Sequence record: ON470615.2
Source: Escherichia phage vB_EcoM-673R5
Length of the DNA stretch: 64,000 nucleotides
Strand: one strand, 5' to 3'
Shown here: positions 3,389 through 38,833 of the stretch, one piece after another
Position numbering within the stretch: the first letter of the stretch is position 1
Layout of the letters: each line of letters opens with the position of its first letter
Notes under the pieces: generated by a model
What the model saw: the letters and a program-made list of their open reading frames with translations, nothing else
Databases searched by the model: none
Told to the model about the DNA's origin: nothing
Program-made: the position numbers and the translations under genes

Positions 3389-4212
3389 TTACTGGCTGCC
3401 CCTTCTTGGTTTTACGGCTGCGCGTAACTGATGCGGCTGACTTAACCTTTTTCTCTTCGCGAGTGATGGCAATTTGTTTTTTACATTTTCAATATCTGCC
3501 AGGCGATATATTTTTGCTTGCGGCCAGCGGTCGCAGATGATCGGTTCTATGGAGTCATAAAGGCTAAATTTTGCTTTTTCGAATTCACCGTTGATGATAA
3601 TTCCATCACGAGAGAGTTTCATCGCAGATAAACACGCCACACAGTGGCACATGGTAACTAACTGATTTACCATCATTGTAGTTAGGGCTACTGGAAATGT
3701 AGTGGACGCGCAGCATTGTTTCGCTAAAGCCGTGTACGCGCATACGGAATTTTTCATCCTCCGGGTACTGCTTCATTAGCTCTTTTGTTGCTTCCAGGTT
3801 CTCTATGTATTTCGCACTGTGCTCATTGATCCCCGCGCTTTTTGGATGCGAATGTCCTTATCAATCAGATGAATAATGCGGCCAGCGGTCATGTTGACGC
3901 TGTTCACAGCTTCTGTCTGATAAGTTGTAACCTTACGCACACCGCGAAGGATGTTAGGCACTGGATATAAAATAGTCTTTGGGATATTGAGGTCTGGGTA
4001 CTGTTCCAGTTCCCGCGCCATTAAAGTCCATTTATCAATTTCAGCCTGAATGCTGTCAGTTTCTTTGAACGGTAGAACGACAACCGGGCGTACAGGACGA
4101 CCGTCGCTGGCTGTATCAACGTGTTGGGCGCGTGCAACAGCTTTTTTAGAAAGAGATCCCTGAAGCTGACGAACTCCTGGTACAGTTGTTCGCCGTAGAC
4201 ATAATTTATCAT
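3389..4212 (-). CDS. c1: C1 repressor of lysogeny; frame broken twice
   Basis: Pieces 4021-4212, 3803-4021, 3389-3757; N-terminus MINYVYGEQLYQEFVSFRDLFLKK and ...DKWTLMARELEQYPDLNIPKTILYPVPNILRGVRKVTTYQ match my recollection of P1 C1; first break falls in an A6 run. Confidence 0.75.
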
Positions 4213-8469: not shown

Positions 8470-9578
8470 ATGAAAGCAATGGGGAATGAAGTTTATCAAA
8501 GTCAAAAATGCAAGTTGAAATATTCAAAATCTCAAATTGATAGGGCTGCTCAATTGATAAGGCACGGGTGTAGTGACGAAGAAAGGCAGCAATCTATTGA
8601 AATGATACAAAATTTCCGTGAGCTGCATCTTTATCCATTAATGCTCATGAAAAATCATTTAGCAAGAGCAGCTGCTAAGGTTGACAAGGACAAAAAGATT
8701 CTCGTTGCAAGAAGACTTAAGCGACTTTCTACCATAATAGATAAACTAGAGCGTCCTAGTCTTGATGGAGGCAGAACTAGCAATGCAATTAAATTAACAC
8801 GGATGCAGGACGTTGGCGGATGTAGGGCCATTGTCAGAAACTTAGACCAGTTGATACAGCTAAAGGAACGTCTTTTAAAAAGCAAATCTGTTCATAGGAT
8901 TGTTAAAGAGTATGATTATCTTACTCCCAAAGACAGCGGCTATAGTGGAATCCACCTTGCATACAGTTGCTTCGATCAGAAGAGGATCAATATCCGTGGC
9001 GAAAAACAAAGATTGAGATACAGTTAAGAACTCAATTGCAGCATGCTTGGGCTACCAGCCTTGAAATAATTGATACCCTTGAAGGTATCAAGCTGAAAAC
9101 TTCAAGTGAAGGGCATCCAGAATGGAGACGATTTTTCTATCTAGCCGGATGTCTTGTAGCGCACGACGAAAAAGCCTGCACTCTTGATGAGCTAGTTGTA
9201 TCTCAGTATGAAGGCGAGCTTAAAGAGCTGGAACGGACTTTATCTGTACGGAGGAAACTAAGCACATACACCATCGCCTTAAATTTAACTTCTGACGCGA
9301 ATTTGATTAAGAAGTTGCCAAAAAATCATAAGGGGCATTACTTAGTAACAATGAGAAATGCAGAAAACAAGCCCAATACAAAAAACAAAAAAATGTTCCT
9401 AGTGTCTGTTCGCGCATTTAAAACAAAAGAAGCAGATGAAGCCCTTGAGGCCTTAAATAAAGACGATTCTAATCCTAATGTATTGATATCTGTTCTCGTT
9501 GCTACAGATAACATTAAGTCACTAAAAAAGCCTACCCCAACTATTTTGGCTCAACAAACCAGTTTACAAAATTCTTAG
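8470..9578 (+). CDS. fused RelA/SpoT-domain toxin (toxSAS, CapRel-like); frame broken once in an A5 run near 9005
   Basis: ORFs 8470-9027 and 8967-9578 join to about 369 aa; RelA/SpoT synthetase motifs (DVGGCRAIV, GYSGIHLAY, EIQLRTQLQHAWA); AT-rich vs flanks. Confidence 0.65.
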
Positions 9579-18924: not shown

Positions 18925-20150
18925 CAAACATTCCCAATTCACAGAGTCCGACCTAAACCACATGAAGCGGCTTAGGAATTACAGACTCTCCAAGGGCTAA
19001 CACTGCCAGCCCGGCAGCTTTTATATTACGGGCCGCGTTAATATCACGATCATGCTCTGCGCCACATTCCGGGCAGTGCCATTTACGAATATTAAGAGGC
19101 ATTTTTTGCATGGTGAAGCCGCAACTGCTGCAACGTTTGGAAGAAGGGAAATACTGGTCGATAGCGACAATGCTACGTCCACCCCATTCTCCTTTGTACT
19201 GGAGTTGGCGTACAAGTTCGCTCCAGCCTGCGTCAGCTATTGCTTTAGACAGCTTCGGGTTACGGATCATGTTTTTCACTTTAAGGGATTCGACGCAAAC
19301 AACTTGGTTTTCGTTAATCAGTTTGCGGGACAACTTATGCAGGTTATCCATCCGACAATCGACTATTCTCGCGTGGAGGCGGGCAACCTTTAAACGTGCT
19401 TTGGCGCGGTTCTTTGAGCCTTTTTGTTTCTTGCTCAATCTGCGCTGTAACACTGCTAATCGCTTCGCGTATTTAGCGTTGTGTCGAGGATTGCCAGTTT
19501 TAAAACCGGTATCGGTGACGAACAAATCTTTTAAACCAATATCAATGCCGACCGTGGAAACGGTGATCGGCAGTGATACAGGCTCAAACTCGCAGAGACA
19601 GGATACAAAATATCGTCCGGCAGCATCCCCTGGTGATAGTGACAGTGGATGGAGCAGACGGCAACGGACGGCTCCAGCGAACATCTAACGGCTCTTTGCT
19701 CTTTGCCATGTACAGCTTGCCGTCACGGTATTTAAATGCGCTGGCAGTTAGTTCTGCGGCCTGTTTATGCCGCTTGCTCTTAAAAACTGGGTATGCAGCA
19801 CGCCCGGCGAAAAAGTTAGCAAAAGCCGTTTGTTGGTGGCGCAGAGACTGCTGGAGGGGGACGCAGGAAACGTCATTCAGCCAAGCGAATTCTGGTTCTT
19901 TTTCAGTGCCGTTAATTTGGCGCTGGCTTGTGCATAGCCGACCCTCTCATGGCGTGCGTAGTACGCATCGGTGCGCCAGCGAAGGAGGCTGTTATAGACA
20001 AAACGCACACACCCAAAAGTCCGGGCTAATAGCTCGGTTTGTTCGGGAGTTGGATAGAATCGATATTTATAGGCACGCTTCATGTTCTATATAATACATT
20101 GAAACTAATGAGTATATAAATGAATACACGGACGAAAATGTTATCAAAGC
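18925..20150 (-). mobile_element. IS200/IS605-family element carrying tnpB only
   Basis: tnpB fills the interval between portal stop (18920) and protease start (20196); no tnpA; ends not mapped. Confidence 0.5.
18953..20083 (-). CDS. tnpB: TnpB (OrfB) of IS200/IS605 family; frameshifted
   Basis: N-terminus MKRAYKYRFYPTPEQTELLARTFGCVRFVYNSLL; C-terminal zinc-finger region (CSSCG...WHCPECGAEHDRDINAARNI). Confidence 0.7.
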
Positions 20151-21514: not shown

Positions 21515-22057
21515 GCCCCGTCAGGCAAAGCTGGCGTTCTTTTTCACGGCGAATCTTTAAACCTCGCAGGGGCACGCCGTTACTGTTCACGAAATCAGGG
21601 AGATGGTTACACATATTCACCCATTCCCCTTTCTGCGCCCACTTGTGGATGGACGTTTCTACTCGCATGCCTCGCGCTTTGCTGTAGTAGGTCCGTAAGC
21701 TATTGCATCCCATATTGAATGCCGCGCTTGTCATTGCACTGAAGGCATTATCGGGCATGTCTTTGCCCCGGAAGTGCTGATTAATACAGCGTTCAGCGAT
21801 CAGGATATTCTTTTCCCAATCAGCGGCGATTTGCTGGTCGGTTTTTCGCACACCCGGCGTTACCCCGTGTGTATTACCGATCCCGTCAGTCCATACCCCG
21901 CCGGGCACATGTATGGATCACGTCGGCAACCTTCAGCGTTACCAATCAGCTCAAGCCCCGCCTGGTTGGTTCGCACATTGCCATTACCCATCACGATGGT
22001 AATCATCACCGCGATAGCGCAAATTGCACCGCCTCCTGCGGCTGTTTTTCCCTTCAT
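21501..22057 (-). CDS. lyz: SAR endolysin Lyz (T4-lysozyme fold); one frameshift
   Basis: MKGKTAAGGGAICAIAVMITIVMG SAR segment then ELIGNAEGCRRDPYMCPAG catalytic region; ORFs 21860-22099 and 21501-21908. Confidence 0.75.
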
Positions 22058-22140
22058 AAAGACCTCATAAGCGAATTTTTTACGCTCCAGGACAAACACC
22101 CATTCACAGCCAATACCGACTGACTCGATCCTTTAGAAGG

Positions 22141-22168
22141 CACAGGATAATGCAAATCACTTGTTAGC
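22141..22168 (-). promoter_or_regulatory. putative late promoter box upstream of lyz
   Basis: Minus strand AACAAGTGATT-tgcat-TATCCT. Confidence 0.3.
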
Positions 22169-22189
22169 TACGTTTCAAAGATATACATT

Positions 22190-22206
22190 ATTGCTCTAAT
22201 TAATTT
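22190..22206 (+). promoter_or_regulatory. C1 operator upstream of ssb
   Basis: ATTGCTCTAATTAATTT. Confidence 0.5.
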
Positions 22207-22225
22207 ATTTTATTAGGTAAGATAA

Positions 22226-22714
22226 GTGGCACAACGCGGTGTAAACAAAGTCATCCTGATTGGTACCCTGGGGCAAGACCCGGAGATCAGGTATATACCA
22301 AATGGCGGAGCGGTCGGAAGACTCAGCATCGCAACGAATGAATCATGGCGCGACAAGCAAACGGGCCAACAGAAAGAGCAAACAGAATGGCATAGAGTCG
22401 TTTTGTTCGGGAAACTTGCTGAAATTGCGAGTGAGTATTTACGAAAAGGTTCTCAGGTCTACATCGAAGGGAAACTTAAAACCCGTAAGTGGACAGATGA
22501 CGCCGGTGTAGAACGTTACACGACGGAAATTATCGTCAGCCAGGGCGGAACTATGCAAATGATCGGCGCCCGCCGCGACGATTCACAGTCCTCAAATGGC
22601 TGGGGGCAATCAAACCAACCTCAAAACCACCAGCAATACAGCGGTGGCGGCAAACCTCAGAGCAGCGCCAATAACGAACCTCCAATGGACTTTGACGACG
22701 ATATTCCGTTTTAG
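22226..22714 (+). CDS. ssb: single-stranded DNA-binding protein
   Basis: 162 aa; OB-fold N-terminus, Gly/Gln-rich linker, acidic tip DFDDDIPF. Confidence 0.9.
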
Positions 22715-22752
22715 AGTTAACTTGTGAGTTATTTGTAAATAGTTCATACACA

Positions 22753-22781
22753 GGCCCCTGTTAATACAGGGGATTTTTATT
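22753..22781 (+). terminator. intrinsic terminator after ssb
   Basis: CCCCTG-ttaata-CAGGGG hairpin followed by ATTTTTATTT. Confidence 0.55.
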
Positions 22782-22962
22782 TCTAGTAACTATAAGAGGT
22801 GTTAATTATTAATTGACAATCTTTAGTGTTTCGCGCACCTTGCAAGTATCCAATATTTACTGATTGTGGATGCATAAAGAAGATCCACAGCGTTACAAAT
22901 TTGTATTTCTTTCTTCAGCAATTAAGCAGGCGACTTGCTCTATCCTGCCCAAAGGAACACGT

Positions 22963-24316
22963 ATGACACACTGCAAAGAAAATACTTGGTATGAGCGTCA
23001 AGGGTACAATACCACCCGCCCGAATGAGATAAGGTCGGAGTATGAACGTGATCTTTCCCGGTTAATCCACTCTTCCGCTTTTAGGAGATTACAATCGAAG
23101 ACGCAGGTGTTGGGATTGGGCGAAAGCGATTTCTACCGTACGCGGCTAACTCACTCTATGGAAGTAGCGCAAATTGGCGGCGGTATCTTGTCTCAGTTGT
23201 CTAAGCGCGATACAGATGAGGGGGTAAATTCTTACCTGACCCAAGCCTGATGCAGGCTATCTGCCTTGCTCATGATATAGGACATCCCCCTTCGGTCATG
23301 GTGGTGAGGTCGCACTAAACTACTGCATGAGATCCTATGGCGGCTTTGAAGGTAACGGGCAGACACTGCGTATACTCTCCAAACTGGATAAGTACACCGA
23401 AACCAATGGGCTGGATCCCACCCGTAGACTTATTTTAGGCGTACTGAAATATCCAGCAAGCTATTCAGAGGTCGTCAATGAGAGGGCTTACAGCCAGTTA
23501 CAGCCAAGAAGCAATGAGTGGTTGTTTAAATCATCCGAATTTAAGCCCCCGAAATGTTACCTGGACTCTGAGGAGAACACTGTTAGATTCGCACTCCAAC
23601 CTTTTGATAGTGATGATGTTAAGTTATTCAAAACGGTAAAAACTACCGCGTTGAATAAGCACAAGGAAACAATATATAAAGCACTGGATACAACGATTAT
23701 GGACTTGGCTGATGAGATATCCTACTCACTCCATGATCTTGAAGACGCAATTTCTCTGAAGATGATCGACAAAAAAATGTGGGAGGAGCACTTCGAGGAC
23801 AAATCCCATTTATTTGCAGCTTGCCAATGCGACTCGTTTAATCTAAAAGCCGATGATGTAGCTGAAAAACTGTTCGGCGAAAGTTATCTACGCAAGGAGT
23901 GCATAGGGACACTTGTTCATCTGATGATCACTAGCGTTAAGCTTGAAGTGCAGAACTCTGATTTCAAAAGTAAAATTTTACGCTATAAAGTGGCACTTCC
24001 TGCCGCGGTAGAAGAGTTACGTAAAGCCATTTTTGAGCTGGTTAGGAACAAAGTTATTCAGCACGAAAACGTCCAACTATTAGAGTTCAAAGGTCAGAAA
24101 CTGATTGTGGAACTATTCAATGTACTGGCAAATGACCCAATACGTTTTCTCCCGACAGAAACTCGAAAGAAATATAATCAAGAGGAAGCAAAAGGTGATG
24201 ATAAAAAAATGCGTGTCATTTGCGACTATGTTTCAGGCATGACAGATGATTACGCTACTCGACTGTATGAGAAAATATTTGTACCGAGAAAAGGCTCTAT
24301 TTTTGATAGACTCTGA
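22963..24316 (+). CDS. dGTPase-family HD phosphohydrolase (dGTP triphosphohydrolase-like); one frameshift near 23250
   Basis: Motifs [24 protein letters not shown] and [15 protein letters not shown] typical of Dgt-type HD hydrolases; ORFs 22864-23250 and 23327-24316; lower GC than backbone. Confidence 0.65.
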
Positions 24317-24482
24317 TTTTTTTCTATTATATAGTACGTAGCCGGGTTCCAGAACCGCATAAAATTAGATCTGGATATAATTCATTTAATTATCTGTTAT
24401 ATGCCAAACATAACGATATATAATAGTGGATTAGATGTTACAACTTGACGCAGAATAAATAGCTTTTATTGGCGCATGATGC

Positions 24483-24508
24483 AAACCCCGCAATGAAGCG
24501 GGGTTTTA
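24483..24508. terminator. bidirectional intrinsic terminator
   Basis: AACCCCGC-aatgaa-GCGGGGTT with flanking A/T runs, between convergent genes. Confidence 0.55.
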
Positions 24509-24523
24509 ACTGTGGTAAATGAG

Positions 24524-24892
24524 TTATAATCTTTTAATCAGGCTCTCAATATTAGTTGGTTCAAAGTAATGCTTATTAACCTCTCCATTTATGAGGAAAC
24601 CGTCTTTTAGTAGTCGGTCTAGCTCACGCTCTGCTTCTTTGTTGAACATACCTGGATATATTCTCTTGTACAACTGAAACGTACCATTCATATTCCTGTA
24701 AGCATTCTCAGCAATTTCAATGGAGATTTCATTTCCGGCGTTAAATACAGGAATGAATATCTCAAGAATATCATTCTTTAACTTCTGTTTAAGTTTCTTT
24801 TTTTCAACAATATTAGAATAAAAGATACCTAAAAAAAATGTGCAGATACCAGGAAGCCAATTATTAACGAAAACCTCAGACAAAGCGTCCAC
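24524..24892 (-). CDS. hypothetical membrane-anchored protein, AT-rich gene
   Basis: 122-aa ORF, N-terminal hydrophobic segment (WLPGICTFFLGIFYSNIV) then charged domain; GC visibly below neighbours. Confidence 0.45.
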   Translation of the reverse strand: MDALSEVFVNNWLPGICTFFLGIFYSNIVEKKKLKQKLKNDILEIFIPVFNAGNEISIEIAENAYRNMNGTFQLYKRIYPGMFNKEAERELDRLLKDGFLINGEVNKHYFEPTNIESLIKRL

Positions 24893-25098
24893 TATCTTAC
24901 TCCAGAGTTAAGATTGATTCTCATAACGCACAAACTCCGTTCAAGGCGATTTTTATATTACAAACTATACATAAACGCTGATCAATATCTCCAGATTTTG
25001 TGTGCCTGTGCATGAATATGCACTAATCATAATCGACCAGAACTTCCGTTAATCGCTAAACTCGAACGATTCTAGCCACATAGACGATCTGTTAGTAT

Positions 25099-25407
25099 CT
25101 AATATACAAACTGATCCACATGATCACCCAAATCATCGTCGTCGTCCTCATCGCCACCATCTACTGCTGGCCAATCAACAAACCAGCCAGCGTAAAGATG
25201 CAGCGTTCGGAGAACATCACTTGCGGGAGCATCAAGGGTGTTAACGAATCCCATATAGCTATTGGGATTTGCTCCAGCTATGGCTTCAGCGATCATGTCC
25301 TCGGTAATGTCACCGGAGATAATGCTTAAACGCCCGGAAACTTCTTCATTATCATCAAATTCGATAATGGCATCTCCACCTAATGGCGCTGCGATTTTAA
25401 TCTGCAT
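25099..25407 (-). CDS. acidic 102-aa protein (darA-operon distal gene)
   Basis: ORF ending in DGGDEDDDDDLGDHVDQFVY; overlaps next gene start. Confidence 0.4.
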   Translation of the reverse strand: MQIKIAAPLGGDAIIEFDDNEEVSGRLSIISGDITEDMIAEAIAGANPNSYMGFVNTLDAPASDVLRTLHLYAGWFVDWPAVDGGDEDDDDDLGDHVDQFVY

Positions 25408-26086
25408 TATTTAGCTCCTTTGCCACACCTAATAACAGTTCCAGCAATCCGTCACCATTCATCAGTGATGCGGCAGCGGCCTCTTTGTCATGATACAACT
25501 GAAGAGCCATAGAGAATACTTCCGTTGCTGACGTTTTGGAAATAGTCGGTGATTTCTGCCGAATTTTCCCGGTGTTACTTACTGAGGCTGGCGGGTATAC
25601 CTTCGCCATATAAATATTACTCAATCGAGATCTGAAGCACCATTCAGGCTTGCCACGCCCACCGATATTGACGAAAGATGGCTTATCCCCTTCAACATTG
25701 GCCTTCAGGAATGACCGGGCTTTCTCTAACAAACCAGGGTTACTGTACTCAAGATGATGACCCAGCTCGTGCCACAGTGCACTTGCATTTTCATCGTTCA
25801 AATTGACAGCAACAACACCATTAAGATTTGCATACGCCCTACCCTTGTGGTGAATTACCCTTGATAAGGTTGATATTTTCCCGCCGGTCAGGCGATAAAT
25901 ATCAGCAAGTTCCTTGCGCAGGTCTATTCCACCATTCTGTCCAGCGCGGGCTTCTTCCACTTCTTCCGTGATAAAAGAGTCGGCCCACTCAAGAGCTTTT
26001 TCTTCAGATACGGATGAGTTGGCAATCGCACTGTTCATGGCAGATAACACTTTCTCGTGGACCGAACCCATACTTTGCTGATTCAT
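25397..26086 (-). CDS. HExxH-motif protein (putative zinc metallopeptidase-like)
   Basis: 229-aa ORF with WHELGHHLEY; start coupled to stop of upstream gene (ATGA). Confidence 0.45.
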   Translation of the reverse strand: MNQQSMGSVHEKVLSAMNSAIANSSVSEEKALEWADSFITEEVEEARAGQNGGIDLRKELADIYRLTGGKISTLSRVIHHKGRAYANLNGVVAVNLNDENASALWHELGHHLEYSNPGLLEKARSFLKANVEGDKPSFVNIGGRGKPEWCFRSRLSNIYMAKVYPPASVSNTGKIRQKSPTISKTSATEVFSMALQLYHDKEAAAASLMNGDGLLELLLGVAKELNNAD

Positions 26087-28113
26087 TTGCCAGCGTGTCT
26101 GCGGGTTATATGAGAATCGCTTAAGTAGTTGGTCAAGCTGCTCAAGTTCTTCTTCACTGACATACCTTTTAGCCTCACCAATAATGCCAGGAGAATATTG
26201 CCGTTAGGATTAAACGCTCGCGAAAGGAAGAGTTTCAGCGCCCCCATGCCCTCCGATGCTTCAATATCACCAATAACCCGGTTAACAATGGCCGCACTCT
26301 TCGGATTAGCATCCGCCAACGCTCTGGCTACGATTTGCAGGGACGATACGACCTCACGCTGCATATCAGTCCTGATCTCATCAATAAACTCTGGCGTTAT
26401 GCCGTGCTCTTTAAGGATATCCCGGCCTTCCGCCGTTACCCCATCGATATCACCGACATGTTTATTAACACGACTTTGCAATGCCTTAAATGCCTTCAGA
26501 ATTCCACGGGCATCATCCGCTTTACTAACGGCCTTCCTGAATGCTGGCAAGAAGTCTGAGTTAACCTCATTTTGTTGATCGGCCCACTGAATGGAGGCTT
26601 CTTTCATCTCGTCCAGAGTCAGATCACCCAACGCGGTATGGTCTGTGAATATGAGCGACAACCTCTGAACCATTTCTGCCAATGGTGATGCCGAATGCGC
26701 CGCGCTAAGGAATGCTTTCACCCTGGTTGGGCGAATGGAAAACCAGTCAATAGCTGGTGGCATATCTCCGTTTTTTATCGCCTGCGCTATCTCGTCAAAG
26801 CCATCGCGCCCAAGGGAGGATGCGTGATTTAACAAGCCGCGAAGTAACGAATTGCTGATACCGAATAATCGGCACCATTTTTTCACGTCGGCAACAGGCA
26901 TTCGAACAAAATGCGCAAGCACTTGTACAAGCTGTTCATCCTGGGGATCTGTGCGGGAAAGCAGCCTGATCAGATGAATAATGTCTTTGATGCCGGATGC
27001 CCGATGTAATAGCAAACTGGTATACGGAGCAACACCGTTGTAACTACCGCCGGAAACGGACTCGAAAAGACCGCCGGATATCCCTTGCATGCCTTCGTTT
27101 TCCAGTTCCTGAGACACCTGGCGAAGGATATCCTGTAACGACACATCGCCGCCGCCAAACATATCCCCCAGCGCCTGGCCCTGGTGCTGTAACTCATCAT
27201 TGATACGTTGAGCCATCAACTTAAAGGCGGTGGCCATACGCTTCGCGCTACGGTTATTCGCGACGATGAACAACGCGAGTGCTTTCACTTCCGGGGCCGT
27301 TTCGCTGAACATATCCCCCTGAGCAATAACATCGGTAATATGCTGGCCTGACTCCTTCGATTGCCTTACCAGGTCTACCGCATCTTTCAATGCCGCCAGC
27401 GCCATTTTATCGAGGCTATCTGCTGTCTCAATGCCATCAACAATAGTTGTCACAGCCTGCTTGTGCGCTTCTCCTGATAAAGCCTGCATCTGGACAAAAT
27501 CATTGGCTGCCGCATTAAGCGCCGTCAGAACATTACGCATATCCGGATCAGGTTCTTCTGCAACCATCCTTACCAGGCGCGCATCCTTATATGCCTTGGC
27601 AAAGATCGCGTTTTGTATACGGTCTACAAGTTGCCGTGTTGGTCGCCCATCTTCAGTTACAAGGCCAGCCGCCTGTGTGGCACCAACTTGCGTCATAAAT
27701 CCGCGAATAAACGCGTCATTACTGCGGCTAAGCAGATCTCCGCTTTCTGACGGGTTAAAAAGCGCCATCATCGCCGGTGTTATGCTGTCGGCATCAACAA
27801 AAGCTTTTTCACTGGCTGCCATTTCCTGAAGATCAGAAATATTTGAGTCCTTGGCAAACTGAACGCGGTCAACCTTAGTTAACCGGCGGCGCACCAGTAC
27901 CGGAGCCGTCATTGATTCAACCTTTTCAGGAGGTATGCCGAATTCGGTCGCATGTTCAATCAGGTACTCATGATACCGATCCGCATTGCCGTCCTGATAG
28001 GCTTTGATGATCCCCATGGTCCGTCCATTACCTGACTCAACGGCATTGTCCTCACCAATTATCGGCGCACCATGGCTGGATAAACCGGAATCAGTAAGCT
28101 GAGCTGGCCGCAA
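26083..28113 (-). CDS. large darA-operon protein (DdrB-like by position)
   Basis: 676-aa ORF; 5' end overlaps ORF 28059-28382 in another frame, so the true N-terminus may lie further upstream. Confidence 0.45.
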   Translation of the reverse strand: MRPAQLTDSGLSSHGAPIIGEDNAVESGNGRTMGIIKAYQDGNADRYHEYLIEHATEFGIPPEKVESMTAPVLVRRRLTKVDRVQFAKDSNISDLQEMAASEKAFVDADSITPAMMALFNPSESGDLLSRSNDAFIRGFMTQVGATQAAGLVTEDGRPTRQLVDRIQNAIFAKAYKDARLVRMVAEEPDPDMRNVLTALNAAANDFVQMQALSGEAHKQAVTTIVDGIETADSLDKMALAALKDAVDLVRQSKESGQHITDVIAQGDMFSETAPEVKALALFIVANNRSAKRMATAFKLMAQRINDELQHQGQALGDMFGGGDVSLQDILRQVSQELENEGMQGISGGLFESVSGGSYNGVAPYTSLLLHRASGIKDIIHLIRLLSRTDPQDEQLVQVLAHFVRMPVADVKKWCRLFGISNSLLRGLLNHASSLGRDGFDEIAQAIKNGDMPPAIDWFSIRPTRVKAFLSAAHSASPLAEMVQRLSLIFTDHTALGDLTLDEMKEASIQWADQQNEVNSDFLPAFRKAVSKADDARGILKAFKALQSRVNKHVGDIDGVTAEGRDILKEHGITPEFIDEIRTDMQREVVSSLQIVARALADANPKSAAIVNRVIGDIEASEGMGALKLFLSRAFNPNGNILLALLVRLKGMSVKKNLSSLTNYLSDSHITRRHAGK

Positions 28114-36009: not shown

Positions 36010-38833
36010 TAAACGCATATGTTACGAGGACGAATGGTTACATAATTAACCCCATCACCTCGTGAAGGCCCTAAATGAAAAACGGGAAAATCCTGGTTGG
36101 TAGAAACAATTTGGTCATAGTTATTGATTGAATGACCAGACCCAATGTCGAAATTACCTCCGTAATGAGAAAAACTTTACCATCCTGCCCTGAAAGCTTA
36201 AAATAGACGTCCCGCATCAATCCCGCGCCCATCATCCCAGCCACGGATAAATTCACCGCGTAAATCCGGTAATTTATTGGTGGGGTAAGCCTTTGCCAGA
36301 TTTGGGTACTTTTCAGAAGAAAATGCTGCTCCATTACATTTCAGCCAGCCCGTTGGAGGTGTTTCTGAGGGCCACGGAACGGGCACACCAACAGGCAGTG
36401 CAGAGCCTTCCCCAAACCAAGGTAATTAAGAACGCTCTGAATACTGGGCTTACTAAGAATTGCACGTCCAACACTTGTCAGTGCAGTTAACGCGGCACGA
36501 TCAACCCCTGTGAAATAAGGGAGTTTATCTGCTGCGGTAGCTAGTGCCGCTAGAGCAGTGAGCGTAGCGTCTGCCGCTTGCTTTCCATTAGCCAAATCAT
36601 ATGCAGCCTTGACAGCTTTCGGTGTAGCGGCCAGCACTTCAGACGTGCTGTTAGTGGCACTACTGAGCTGAGTGATGCCTTTCGCTGTCAATGAAGCTGT
36701 TGGCACACCAGTGATCTGATTCGGGGATGTGTATGACTGGATGGTGCCTTTCCGGCTGCTAGATCGTATGCAGCTTTAACTGCTTTTGGCGTTGCAGCTA
36801 ATGTTTCAGAAGTGCTGTTGGTGTCGCTACTGAGCTGAACTATCCCTTTTTGTGTCGTGGTTGCATCCTGGGCTGTATACTTCCCGTTAGCCAGGTCATA
36901 TGCAGCCTTGACAGCTTTCGGTGTGGCGGCCAGCACTTCAGACGTGCTGTTAGTGGCACTACTGAGCTGAGTGATGCCTTTCGCTGTCAATGAAGCTGTT
37001 GGCACACCAGTGATCTGATTCAGGGATGTGTATGACTGGATGGTGCCTTTCCGGCTGCTAGATCGTATGCAGCTTTAACCGCTTTTGGCGTTGCAGCTAA
37101 TGTTTCAGAAGTGCTGTTGGTGTCGCTACTGAGCTGAACTATCCCTTTTTGTGTCGTGGTTGCATCCTGGGCTGTATACTTCCCGTTAGCCAGGTCATAT
37201 GCAGCCTTGACAGCTTTCGGTGTGGCGGCCAGCACTTCAGACGTGCTGTTAGTGGCACTACTGAGCTGAGTGATGCCTTTCGCTGTCAATGAAGCTGTTG
37301 GCACACCAGTAATCTGATTCCAGGGATGTGTATGACTGGATGGTGCTTTTTCGGCTGCTAGATCGTATGCAGCTTTAACCGCTTTTGGCGTTGCAGCTAA
37401 TGTTTCAGAAGTGCTGTTGGTGTCGCTACTGAGCTGAACTATCCCTTTTTGTGTCGTGGTTGCATCCTGGGCTGTATACTTCCCGTTAGCCAGGTCATAT
37501 GCAGCCTTGACAGCTTTCGGTGTGGCGGCCAGCACTTCAGACGTGCTGTTAGTGGCACTACTGAGCTGAGTGATGCCTTTCGCTGTCAATGAAGCTGTTG
37601 GCACACCAGTGATCTGATTCCAGGGATGTGTATGACTGGATGGTGCCTTTCCGGCTGCTAGATCGTATGCAGCTTTAACCGCTTTTGGCGTTGCAGCTAA
37701 TGTTTCAGAAGTGCTGTTGGTGTCGCTACTGAGCTGAACTATCCCTTTTTGTGTCGTGGTTGCATCCTGGGCTGTATACTTCCCGTTAGCCAGGTCATAT
37801 GCAGCCTTGACAGCTTTCGGTGTGGCGGCCAGCACTTCAGACGTGCTGTTAGTGGCACTACTGAGCTGAGTGATGCCTTTCGCTGTCAATGAAGCTGTTG
37901 GCACACCAGTGATCTGATTCAGGGATGTGTATGACTGGATGGTGCCTTTCCGGCTGCTAGATCGTATGCAGCTTTAACCGCTTTTGGCGTTGCAGCTAAT
38001 GTTTCAGAAGTGCTGTTGGTGTCGCTACTGAGCTGAACTATCCCTTTTTGTGTCGTGGTTGCATCCTGGGCTGTATACTTCCCGTTAGCCAGGTCATATG
38101 CAGCCTTGACAGCTTTCGGTGTGGCGGCCAGCACTTCGGACGTACTGTTAGTGGCACTACTGAGCTGAACTAATCCCTTTTGCGTTGTGCTTGCATCCTG
38201 CGCCGTATACTTGCTTTTCGCCAGATCGTAGGCTTTTTTAACTGCCAGCGAACTCGCAGCAACATCACTTCTGGTACTGGTTACAGAGTCTGAAATATCA
38301 ATGCCGATCGTGCGGTTGATACGCTCGGATGTATCAATCATCTCTTGAGTAATGGTAGATACGCCAGCAGGGATATTCACCGTACAAACCAGCAGTTCCC
38401 CATCACCTAACTGATATGAATCGGTATAGGTTCTGGCAACAAATTCAGCTGCATGAATATGTGACGCGGTATTCACCTGATAGGTATCTTCTCCAAGAAG
38501 GTATCTTCCCTTCAGCACAATTGCATATTTCTTGCCTGCGTTAAGTGCAAGAGAGATATCCTTACGATGCTGAATAGTTACCTGGTAGAATTCACCAATA
38601 TCCACTGACGCCGCGCCAGCGGTTTTATCTCCATCCACTGAGGTGATTAACAGGTTCATCCCACCGCCAGGCTTAGGCAAGAAACCAGCATAAAATCCCG
38701 GGTCAACAATTCCCCTGAATTTTCGGTTTAGAGCGGCTGACAGATATGGTTCGTGGTATTGCACATCAGCCACCAGAGCCAACGACTCGGGTGATGGGTA
38801 AGTAACCGATGTAACAACTGTAACGTCATTCAT
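36010..38833 (-). CDS. S: tail fibre protein S (constant part plus currently joined Sv-e cassette); several frameshifts in repeats
   Basis: Starts MNDVTVVTSVTYPSPESLALVADVQYHEPYL; contains 100-aa tandem repeats; joins cassette at site 5; ORFs 37919-38920, 37020-37904, 36688-37005, 36341-36706, 36198-36386. Confidence 0.7.
36408..36430 (-). repeat. cix-like crossover site 5 (Sc/Sv junction)
   Basis: Minus strand TTACCTTGGTTTGGGGAAGG. Confidence 0.5.
36575..38250 (-). repeat. tandem 300-bp coding repeats (about 5 copies) inside S
   Basis: Unit ...GTGATCTGATTC(C)AGGGATGTGTATGACTGGATGGTGCC... recurs at 36710, 37005, 37305, 37605, 37905; encodes repeated TASLTAKGITQLSSATNSTSEVLAATPKAVKAAYDLA motif. 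Confidence 0.75.

What the first reader, a model, noticed from the sequence alone, without database searches (positions are those of the whole stretch)
22800..24520. dGTPase-family HD hydrolase carried between ssb and the darA operon
The joined ORFs 22864-23250 and 23327-24316 carry Dgt-type motifs ([29 protein letters not shown]) and have lower GC than the backbone; a strong terminator follows. Cellular dGTPase homologues act as antiphage defence by depleting dGTP (established for bacterial defence islands). I do not recall a dGTPase in P1 itself, where this interval holds isaA/IS1/isaB, so this looks like a cargo gene in a variable slot. A prophage-borne dGTPase could exclude superinfecting phages.
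Basis: partly seen in the sequence, partly recalled or inferred. Interest (0 to 1): 0.7.

Follow-up and report, generated by a model that had tools for sequence, protein, structure and literature searches.

The report
Known anti-phage dGTPase on P1-like plasmid
This is an ordinary copy of an already catalogued anti-phage dGTP-degrading enzyme, carried as optional cargo by about a tenth of P1-like phage-plasmids, and its apparent breaks are almost certainly sequencing errors.

Summary
Window 22963-24316 (+) encodes a stand-alone anti-phage dGTPase. After repair it scores 571 bits against NCBIfam NF041026 (cutoff 400) and 493 bits against the PADLOC dGTPase model. It is about 60% identical to the tested Shewanella putrefaciens defence dGTPase (PDB 9P8W).

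It lies in a replaceable slot (22713-25098) between the ssb stop and the hxr stop. P1 carries isaA/IS1/isaB there, and P7 carries nmpC.

Three details need correcting:
- There are two frameshifts, not one.
- The start codon is ATG at 22963, not 22864.
- The hairpin lies 166 nt after the stop and has a short U-tract.

Both frameshifts are 1-nt losses in 6-nt homopolymers. They are the only differences from the intact allele over 1809 nt. The whole window shows the same pattern: 55 indels against 28 substitutions over 38 kb. Indels fall in 20 of 36 genes, including the C1 repressor gene. So the breaks are assembly artefacts, not pseudogenisation.

The finding is not new. At least 53 PLSDB plasmids and 64 complete E. 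coli genomes carry a copy at least 99% identical. RefSeq names it "anti-phage deoxyguanosine triphosphatase", and a 2025 survey lists dGTPase as a common defence on E. coli P1-like phage-plasmids. Interest is low.

The parts
22226..22714 (+). ssb, the left backbone flank. Homology to P1, P7 and Ro157c2YLVW ends at its stop codon.
   Evidence: The C1 operator Ossb lies at 22190-22206.
22713..25098 (.). Replaceable cargo slot (2.39 kb, 39.7% G+C). It holds the dGTPase gene and ORF122.
   Evidence: No P1-like phage record matches this stretch. The junction alignments show where homology stops and resumes.
22755..22772 (+). Terminator-like hairpin plus T-run after ssb. It would insulate the dGTPase gene from the C1-controlled ssb transcript.
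22963..24316 (+). Anti-phage dGTPase gene. It is 451 aa when the two missing bases are restored. Catalytic residues are H64, H104/D105, H113/E116 and the DLADE aspartate.
23220..23224 (+). First frameshift: G5 here against G6 in intact alleles (codons 86-88).
23286..23290 (+). Second frameshift: C5 here against C6 in intact alleles (codons 108-110, between the HD motif and FGHGGE).
24483..24506 (.). G+C-rich hairpin with a 9-bp stem, between the convergent dGTPase gene and ORF122. Possible bidirectional terminator.
   Evidence: Not called by the scan.
24524..24892 (-). ORF122, the second cargo gene. It encodes a small helical protein with a hydrophobic N-terminus. Function is unknown (phrog_26730).
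25099..25407 (-). hxr homologue, the right backbone flank. Homology to P1 resumes at its stop codon.

Best explanation
The window comes from a P1-like phage-plasmid. In the replaceable slot between ssb and hxr it carries a two-gene cargo whose main gene is a stand-alone anti-phage dGTPase.

Proposed mechanism:
- In the real molecule the gene is intact. The two frameshifts are homopolymer under-calls of the assembly.
- The enzyme is made in lysogens from its own, still unidentified, promoter. It lies behind the ssb terminator and has no C1 operator.
- When another phage infects, the HD-domain enzyme hydrolyses dGTP to deoxyguanosine and triphosphate. This starves the invader's DNA replication and protects both the host and the resident phage-plasmid.

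What is shown here: gene identity, family membership, conserved catalytic residues, the cargo and slot structure, the distribution, and the artefactual nature of the frameshifts.

What is inferred from the family (Tal et al., preprint 10.1101/2021.04.26.441389; PMC12265719): dGTP hydrolysis, phage exclusion, and expression in the lysogen.
For: Identity:
- The repaired protein matches NF041026 antiphage_dGTPase end to end (571 bits, cutoff 400).
- It matches PADLOC dGTPase at 493 bits and Pfam HD plus HD_assoc.
- The best PDB match is 9P8W (E = 3e-158, about 60% identity over 436 columns). 9P8W is the S. putrefaciens dGTPase.
- That enzyme protects E. coli from phages and depletes dGTP, and its D101A mutant is inactive. 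D101 aligns with D105 here.

Artefact:
- The two 1-nt deletions are the only differences from NZ_CP027133.1 over 1809 nt.
- Against NZ_CP142927.1 the window has 55 indels and 28 mismatches over 38.4 kb. In 46 of the 55 the window lacks bases.
- The chance that a run is shortened rises with its length: 6% of 5-nt runs, 40% of 6-nt, 56% of 7-nt and 67% of 8-nt.
- 20 of 36 CDS carry indels, including the C1 repressor, lysozyme, darA and darB.
- The rate predicts 1.9 indels in a gene of this length, and 2 are observed.

Cargo:
- Homology to P1, P7 and Ro157c2YLVW stops at the ssb stop and resumes at the hxr stop.
- 53 of about 502 P1-like plasmids carry the gene.
- 64 of 5426 complete E. coli genomes carry it on plasmids, all annotated as intact.
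- There is no C1 operator in the cargo.
Against: - As sequenced, the gene cannot make an active enzyme. The first ORF ends before the HD motif, and the second starts after FGHGGE.
- No reads are available to prove that the indels are errors.
- No sigma-70-like promoter was found upstream of the gene, so expression in the lysogen is unproven.
- This allele has not been tested against phages. Only four of the six dGTPases cloned by Tal et al. gave substantial protection.
- It is unexplained how a dGTP-depleting enzyme is reconciled with the element's own lytic replication.
Confidence: 0.85

Rival explanations
1. The gene is a true pseudogene in this element. Two real slippage frameshifts inactivated a costly dGTPase.
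For: The window sequence as given has both frameshifts. A dGTP-depleting enzyme could be costly to a replicon that must itself replicate lytically.
Against: - There are no substitutions relative to the intact allele over 1809 nt.
- The same type of deletion occurs about 1.4 times per kb across the whole window.
- These deletions would also break the C1 repressor, lysozyme, portal-like, dar and tail genes. That is not credible for a maintained element.
- All 64 E. coli genome copies are annotated as intact.
Confidence: 0.05
2. The dGTPase and ORF122 form a two-gene system. ORF122 would be a regulator, membrane partner or antidote that restrains the enzyme or spares the element's own replication.
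For: - ORF122 accompanies the dGTPase in 52 of 53 plasmids.
- It lies inside the same low-G+C cargo.
- Both proteins have their own PHROG families of unknown function.
Against: - The genes are convergent, not an operon.
- ORF122 homologues in Salmonella Dublin, Marinomonas and Yersinia have no dGTPase neighbour.
- The chromosomal E. coli homologue of the dGTPase has no ORF122 next to it.
- The Sp-dGTPase works alone in vivo and in vitro.
- ORF122 has no Pfam, PADLOC or fold match.
- At 99% or higher identity, co-occurrence may only reflect one recent acquisition.
Confidence: 0.08
3. The enzyme serves the element's or the host's nucleotide housekeeping, as E. coli Dgt does, and not defence.
For: It belongs to the broad dGTP triphosphohydrolase superfamily (TIGR01353, 373 bits).
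Against: - It falls well below the cutoffs of all housekeeping equivalog models. The E. coli Dgt model NF003429 scores 143 bits against a cutoff of 405.
- It is sporadic cargo in a variable slot, not a conserved gene.
- Its closest E. coli chromosomal relative sits in the yjcB-ssb defence island next to Detocs-type response regulators (PMC11728103).
Confidence: 0.03

Closest known systems
Shewanella putrefaciens CN-32 defence dGTPase (Sp-dGTPase; Tal et al., preprint 10.1101/2021.04.26.441389; structure PDB 9P8W)
   Same: - Single-gene system with the same length class (451 against 462 aa).
- About 60% identity across the whole protein.
- Identical [20 protein letters not shown] and SGMTDDYAT motifs, including the aspartate whose mutation (D101A) abolishes defence.
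   Different: - A different host and carrier: this copy rides on a P1-like phage-plasmid rather than a chromosomal defence island.
- This allele has not been tested.
WP_000148486.1, 'anti-phage deoxyguanosine triphosphatase' of E. coli P1-like plasmids (for example NZ_CP027133.1 and NZ_CP142927.1)
   Same: It is the same gene in the same slot with the same neighbours. The DNA is identical over 1809 nt apart from the two homopolymer bases.
   Different: Only the two missing bases, attributed here to assembly error.
E. coli chromosomal dGTPase of the yjcB-ssb defence island (WP_057061554.1; PMC11728103)
   Same: 80% protein identity and the same family name. It lies in a mobile defence context next to Detocs-like genes.
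   Different: It is chromosomal, has different neighbours (a MazE-like gene and no ORF122), and shares only about 80% nucleotide identity. It is therefore not the direct donor.
Clover system (CloA dGTPase plus CloB nucleotidyltransferase; PMC12265719)
   Same: An HD-domain dGTPase effector that depletes dGTP during infection.
   Different: - No CloB-like nucleotidyltransferase is adjacent.
- Similarity to CloA structures is weak and confined to the N-terminal region (E about 1e-24).
- CloA needs dTTP activation, whereas the stand-alone type is active alone in vitro.
E. coli housekeeping Dgt, which is inhibited by T7 Gp1.2 (PMC9478638)
   Same: The same superfamily and the same chemistry: dGTP to deoxyguanosine plus triphosphate.
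   Different: It is a distant relative. The NF003429 model scores 143 bits against a cutoff of 405, and the PDB 4X9E match covers only residues 13-124.

Membership tests
Stand-alone anti-phage dGTPase (NCBIfam NF041026; DefenseFinder/PADLOC 'dGTPase'; Tal et al.) | Full-length profile match above the curated cutoff | tested here: met
   NF041026 scores 571.4 bits (cutoff 400) over residues 9-440, covering profile positions 1-425 of 425. PADLOC PDLC02374 scores 493 bits.
Stand-alone anti-phage dGTPase (NCBIfam NF041026; DefenseFinder/PADLOC 'dGTPase'; Tal et al.) | Tal et al. homologue criteria: more than 400 aa, at least 25% identity to Sp-dGTPase, and at least 90% overlap on both sequences | tested here: met
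   The protein is 451 aa and about 60% identical. The alignment covers query residues 16-451 and 9P8W residues 11-462 of 462.
Stand-alone anti-phage dGTPase (NCBIfam NF041026; DefenseFinder/PADLOC 'dGTPase'; Tal et al.) | HD metal-binding and catalytic residues present | tested here: met
   H64 (RLTHS), H104-D105 (LAHD), H113/E116 (FGHGGE) and the DLADE aspartate are all present and align with Sp-dGTPase.
Stand-alone anti-phage dGTPase (NCBIfam NF041026; DefenseFinder/PADLOC 'dGTPase'; Tal et al.) | Uninterrupted reading frame in this copy | tested here: inconclusive
   As sequenced, the frame is broken twice. The window-wide excess of homopolymer deletions points to assembly error, but no reads were available.
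Stand-alone anti-phage dGTPase (NCBIfam NF041026; DefenseFinder/PADLOC 'dGTPase'; Tal et al.) | dGTP depletion on infection and protection against phages | not testable with these tools
   Shown for the 60%-identical Sp-dGTPase, not for this allele.
Clover (CloA/CloB) | Adjacent CloB nucleotidyltransferase partner | tested here: not met
   The neighbours are ssb and a 122-aa protein with no Pfam or PADLOC match.
Housekeeping dGTPase Dgt (NF003429 and related equivalogs) | Score above the equivalog cutoff | tested here: not met
   NF003429 scores 142.8 bits against 405. All other housekeeping equivalogs also fall below their cutoffs.
P1 (Punavirus) backbone gene | Present at this position in P1-like genomes generally | tested here: not met
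   None of the 19 P1-like phage records has it. P1, P7 and Ro157c2YLVW hold other genes in the slot. 53 of about 502 P1-like plasmids have it.

The most novel reading that the evidence does not exclude
A temperate element that replicates lytically carries an enzyme that destroys dGTP, so it may need a way to spare itself. ORF122 is inherited with the dGTPase in 52 of 53 plasmids. It is transcribed in the same direction as the dar genes just upstream of it. It could be a self-immunity factor or inhibitor of the dGTPase, analogous in role to T7 Gp1.2 acting on Dgt. Nothing here tests this, and the contexts of ORF122 homologues elsewhere argue against an obligate link.
Probability: 0.05. Interest if true: 0.55.

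Novelty: already known. Interest (0 to 1): 0.1.

Why it matters
The biology adds little. A prophage-borne nucleotide-depletion defence in a variable slot of P1-like phage-plasmids is already annotated in RefSeq and reported in surveys.

The practical value is a quality warning. This window carries about 1.4 homopolymer indels per kb, so any apparent frameshift or pseudogene in it should be treated as an assembly artefact until polished.

One question remains open: how the element's own lytic replication coexists with a dGTPase.

Tried and rejected
- Phage collection: megablast of the locus found nothing. The cargo is known only from plasmid and genome records.
- Promoter: I looked for a promoter or a C1 operator controlling the gene. 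There is no sigma-70-like site upstream and no C1 operator inside the cargo. Expression control stays unknown.
- RNA: an Rfam scan of 22000-25600 at E up to 0.1 gave no RNA family.
- ORF122 as a partner gene:
  - It has no Pfam or PADLOC hit.
  - Its only PHROG is of unknown function.
  - The AlphaFold model has moderate confidence (pLDDT 72), and no PDB fold match reached E <= 0.001.
  - Homologues in three other genera have no dGTPase neighbour.
  - I therefore rejected it as an obligate partner.
- Clover: considered and rejected, because there is no CloB and similarity to CloA is weak.
- Chromosomal origin: I considered the yjcB-ssb island copy as the source. It is only about 80% identical, so it is not the direct donor.
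- Tal et al. final paper: one literature search for it found nothing in the library. I used the preprint instead.

Full report
**What is in the sequence**

The window is a P1-like phage-plasmid. It has lyz, ssb and hxr/ddrB/darA in P1 order. It also has ten matches to the P1 C1 operator, where 0.33 would be expected by chance.

Between ssb (22226-22714, +) and hxr (25099-25407, -) there is a dGTPase-like reading frame, but it is spread over three frames:
- Frame 1 runs to a stop at 23248-23250.
- The segment [21 protein letters not shown] is in a second frame.
- [18 protein letters not shown]... onward is in the third frame.

The quoted motif [15 protein letters not shown] straddles the second shift. 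The real start is ATG 22963, which matches the annotated start of intact alleles, not the TTG at 22864.

**The frameshifts are assembly artefacts**

The 1809-nt locus (22715-24523) differs from NZ_CP027133.1 at exactly two positions, and both are homopolymers. One is G5 instead of G6 at 23220-23224. The other is C5 instead of C6 at 23286-23290. There are no substitutions.

I then compared 38.4 kb of the window with NZ_CP142927.1:
- There are 28 mismatches but 55 indel events, and in 46 of them the window lacks bases.
- The fraction of reference homopolymers that are shortened rises steeply with run length:

| Run length (nt) | Fraction shortened |
|---|---|
| 1 | 0.02% |
| 5 | 6% |
| 6 | 40% |
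| 7 | 56% |
| 8 | 67% |

- 20 of 36 annotated genes carry indels, among them the C1 repressor (four events), lysozyme, the portal-like gene, darA, darB, ddrB and tail genes.
- At 1.43 indels per kb, a 1356-nt gene should carry 1.9, and it carries 2.

This is the signature of an unpolished long-read consensus, not of selective decay of one gene. I put the probability of a real pseudogene at about 5%.

**What the gene is**

With the two bases restored, the product is identical to WP_000148486.1 (451 aa).
- It matches NCBIfam NF041026 "anti-phage deoxyguanosine triphosphatase" end to end (571 bits, cutoff 400).
- It scores far below the cutoffs of the housekeeping dGTPase equivalogs. The E. coli Dgt model scores 143 bits against 405.
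- It also matches PADLOC dGTPase at 493 bits and Pfam HD plus HD_assoc.
- The best solved structure is 9P8W (E = 3e-158). The depositing paper identifies 9P8W as the Shewanella putrefaciens CN-32 dGTPase. Identity is about 60% over 436 aligned columns.
- All catalytic motifs are conserved, including D105. This aligns with the D101 whose alanine substitution abolishes defence by Sp-dGTPase.
- The family is very large: more than 3900 cluster representatives at E <= 1e-100.

**Context**

Homology to P1, P7 and Ro157c2YLVW stops exactly at the ssb stop codon and resumes at the hxr stop codon. The cargo is therefore 22713-25098, which is 2.39 kb at 39.7% G+C. The flanks are at 51.4% and 48.4%.

The same slot holds other genes elsewhere:
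- isaA/IS1/isaB in P1
- nmpC in P7
- a DUF2829 gene and two unknown ORFs in Ro157c2YLVW

A terminator-like hairpin follows ssb at 22755-22772. The C1 operator Ossb lies upstream of ssb at 22190-22206, and none lies within the cargo. This fits expression that is independent of ssb, but no promoter was identified.

The second cargo gene is ORF122 (24524-24892, -). It converges on the dGTPase gene across a hairpin at 24483-24506.
- ORF122 accompanies the dGTPase in 52 of 53 plasmids.
- It has no Pfam or PADLOC match and only a PHROG of unknown function.
- It is predicted to be helical, with a hydrophobic N-terminus that is borderline for a membrane helix.
- It has no informative fold match.
- Its homologues in Salmonella, Marinomonas and Yersinia are not next to a dGTPase.

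I treat it as an independent passenger gene.

**Distribution**

- 53 PLSDB plasmids hold a copy at least 99% identical. Of these, 52 are from Escherichia species and one is from Cronobacter sakazakii. About 502 plasmids share the P1 lyz-ssb backbone.
- 64 of 5426 complete E. coli genomes carry it on plasmids, and the listed records annotate it as intact "anti-phage deoxyguanosine triphosphatase".
- Nine chromosomal places hold a homologue with about 80% nucleotide and 80% protein identity. The one inspected lies beside yjcB, next to Detocs-type response regulators. This matches the yjcB-ssb defence island described in PMC11728103.
- A 2025 survey states that P1-like phage-plasmids from E. coli commonly carry CapRel or dGTPase systems (10.1101/2025.09.12.675607).

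**How it most likely works**

This section is inferred from the family. The enzyme hydrolyses dGTP to deoxyguanosine and triphosphate during infection by another phage. That removes a substrate for phage DNA synthesis.
- For Sp-dGTPase, dGTP falls after T7 infection.
- T7 escape mutants map to genes 5.7, 5.5 and 0.7, which modify host RNA polymerase. This suggests the trigger is tampering with host transcription.
- The purified enzyme is active on its own in vitro.

Carried on a prophage-plasmid, the enzyme would protect the lysogen and the resident element against superinfecting lytic phages. It is not known how the element's own lytic cycle avoids or tolerates it.

**Verdict**

However, the feature is already known and named, and the only unusual aspect, the broken frame, is a sequencing artefact. 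Interest is low.

Noticed in passing
window 2020-43544 (whole aligned part): The window shows a systematic excess of 1-nt deletions in homopolymers relative to NZ_CP142927.1. There are 55 indels against 28 mismatches, and 20 of 36 genes are affected, including the C1 repressor gene (about 3477-4142) with four events. Any frameshift seen in this window is suspect.
   Followed up: yes
window 8470-9578 (+): A RelA/SpoT-domain gene is split here into two ORFs (8470-9027 and 8967-9578) by indels at 8980 and 9524. The intact homologue (WP_280956992.1, 378 aa) matches PADLOC candidate defence family PDC-S33 at 287 bits. A survey reports CapRel-type systems as common on E. coli P1-like phage-plasmids.
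   Followed up: partly
window 36581-38168: There is a tandem repeat of a 299-nt unit, 5.3 copies at 98% identity, in the tail-fibre gene region. The blastn pattern suggests a different copy number from NZ_CP142927.1. In an error-prone long-read assembly this could be either real variation or mis-assembly.
   Followed up: no
window about 18950-20090 (-): By alignment to NZ_CP142927.1, an IS200/IS605-type TnpB (RNA-guided endonuclease family) gene lies between the portal-like gene and pro. It is absent at this place in P1 and P7. NZ_CP027133.1 additionally has an IS200C tnpA after pro.
   Followed up: no
window 24524-24892 (-); L008 6001-6384; L012 6001-6399: The ORF122 family has a strongly conserved KLxQKLKNDILEIFIPVFN motif. 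Besides P1-like plasmids, it occurs in a Salmonella Dublin island beside DUF1281 and N6-methylase genes. In Yersinia it lies downstream of a giant LPD/MuF 'polyvalent' protein. In the window it lies just downstream of hxr/ddrB/darA. This hints at an association with injected anti-restriction modules, but that was not tested.
   Followed up: partly
window 25397-28113 (-): ddrB appears as two overlapping ORFs (25397-26086 and 26083-28113), whereas relatives have a single 2988-nt gene. Homopolymer deletions at 26190 and 28159 account for the disruption.
   Followed up: yes
L007 7042-8406 (E. coli ABWA45 chromosome): The chromosomal E. coli homologue of the dGTPase lies in the island named after yjcB and the host ssb, while the plasmid copy abuts the P1 ssb. 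The dGTPase sits at the yjcB end of that island, so this is probably coincidence. Recombination through ssb homology was not examined.
   Followed up: no
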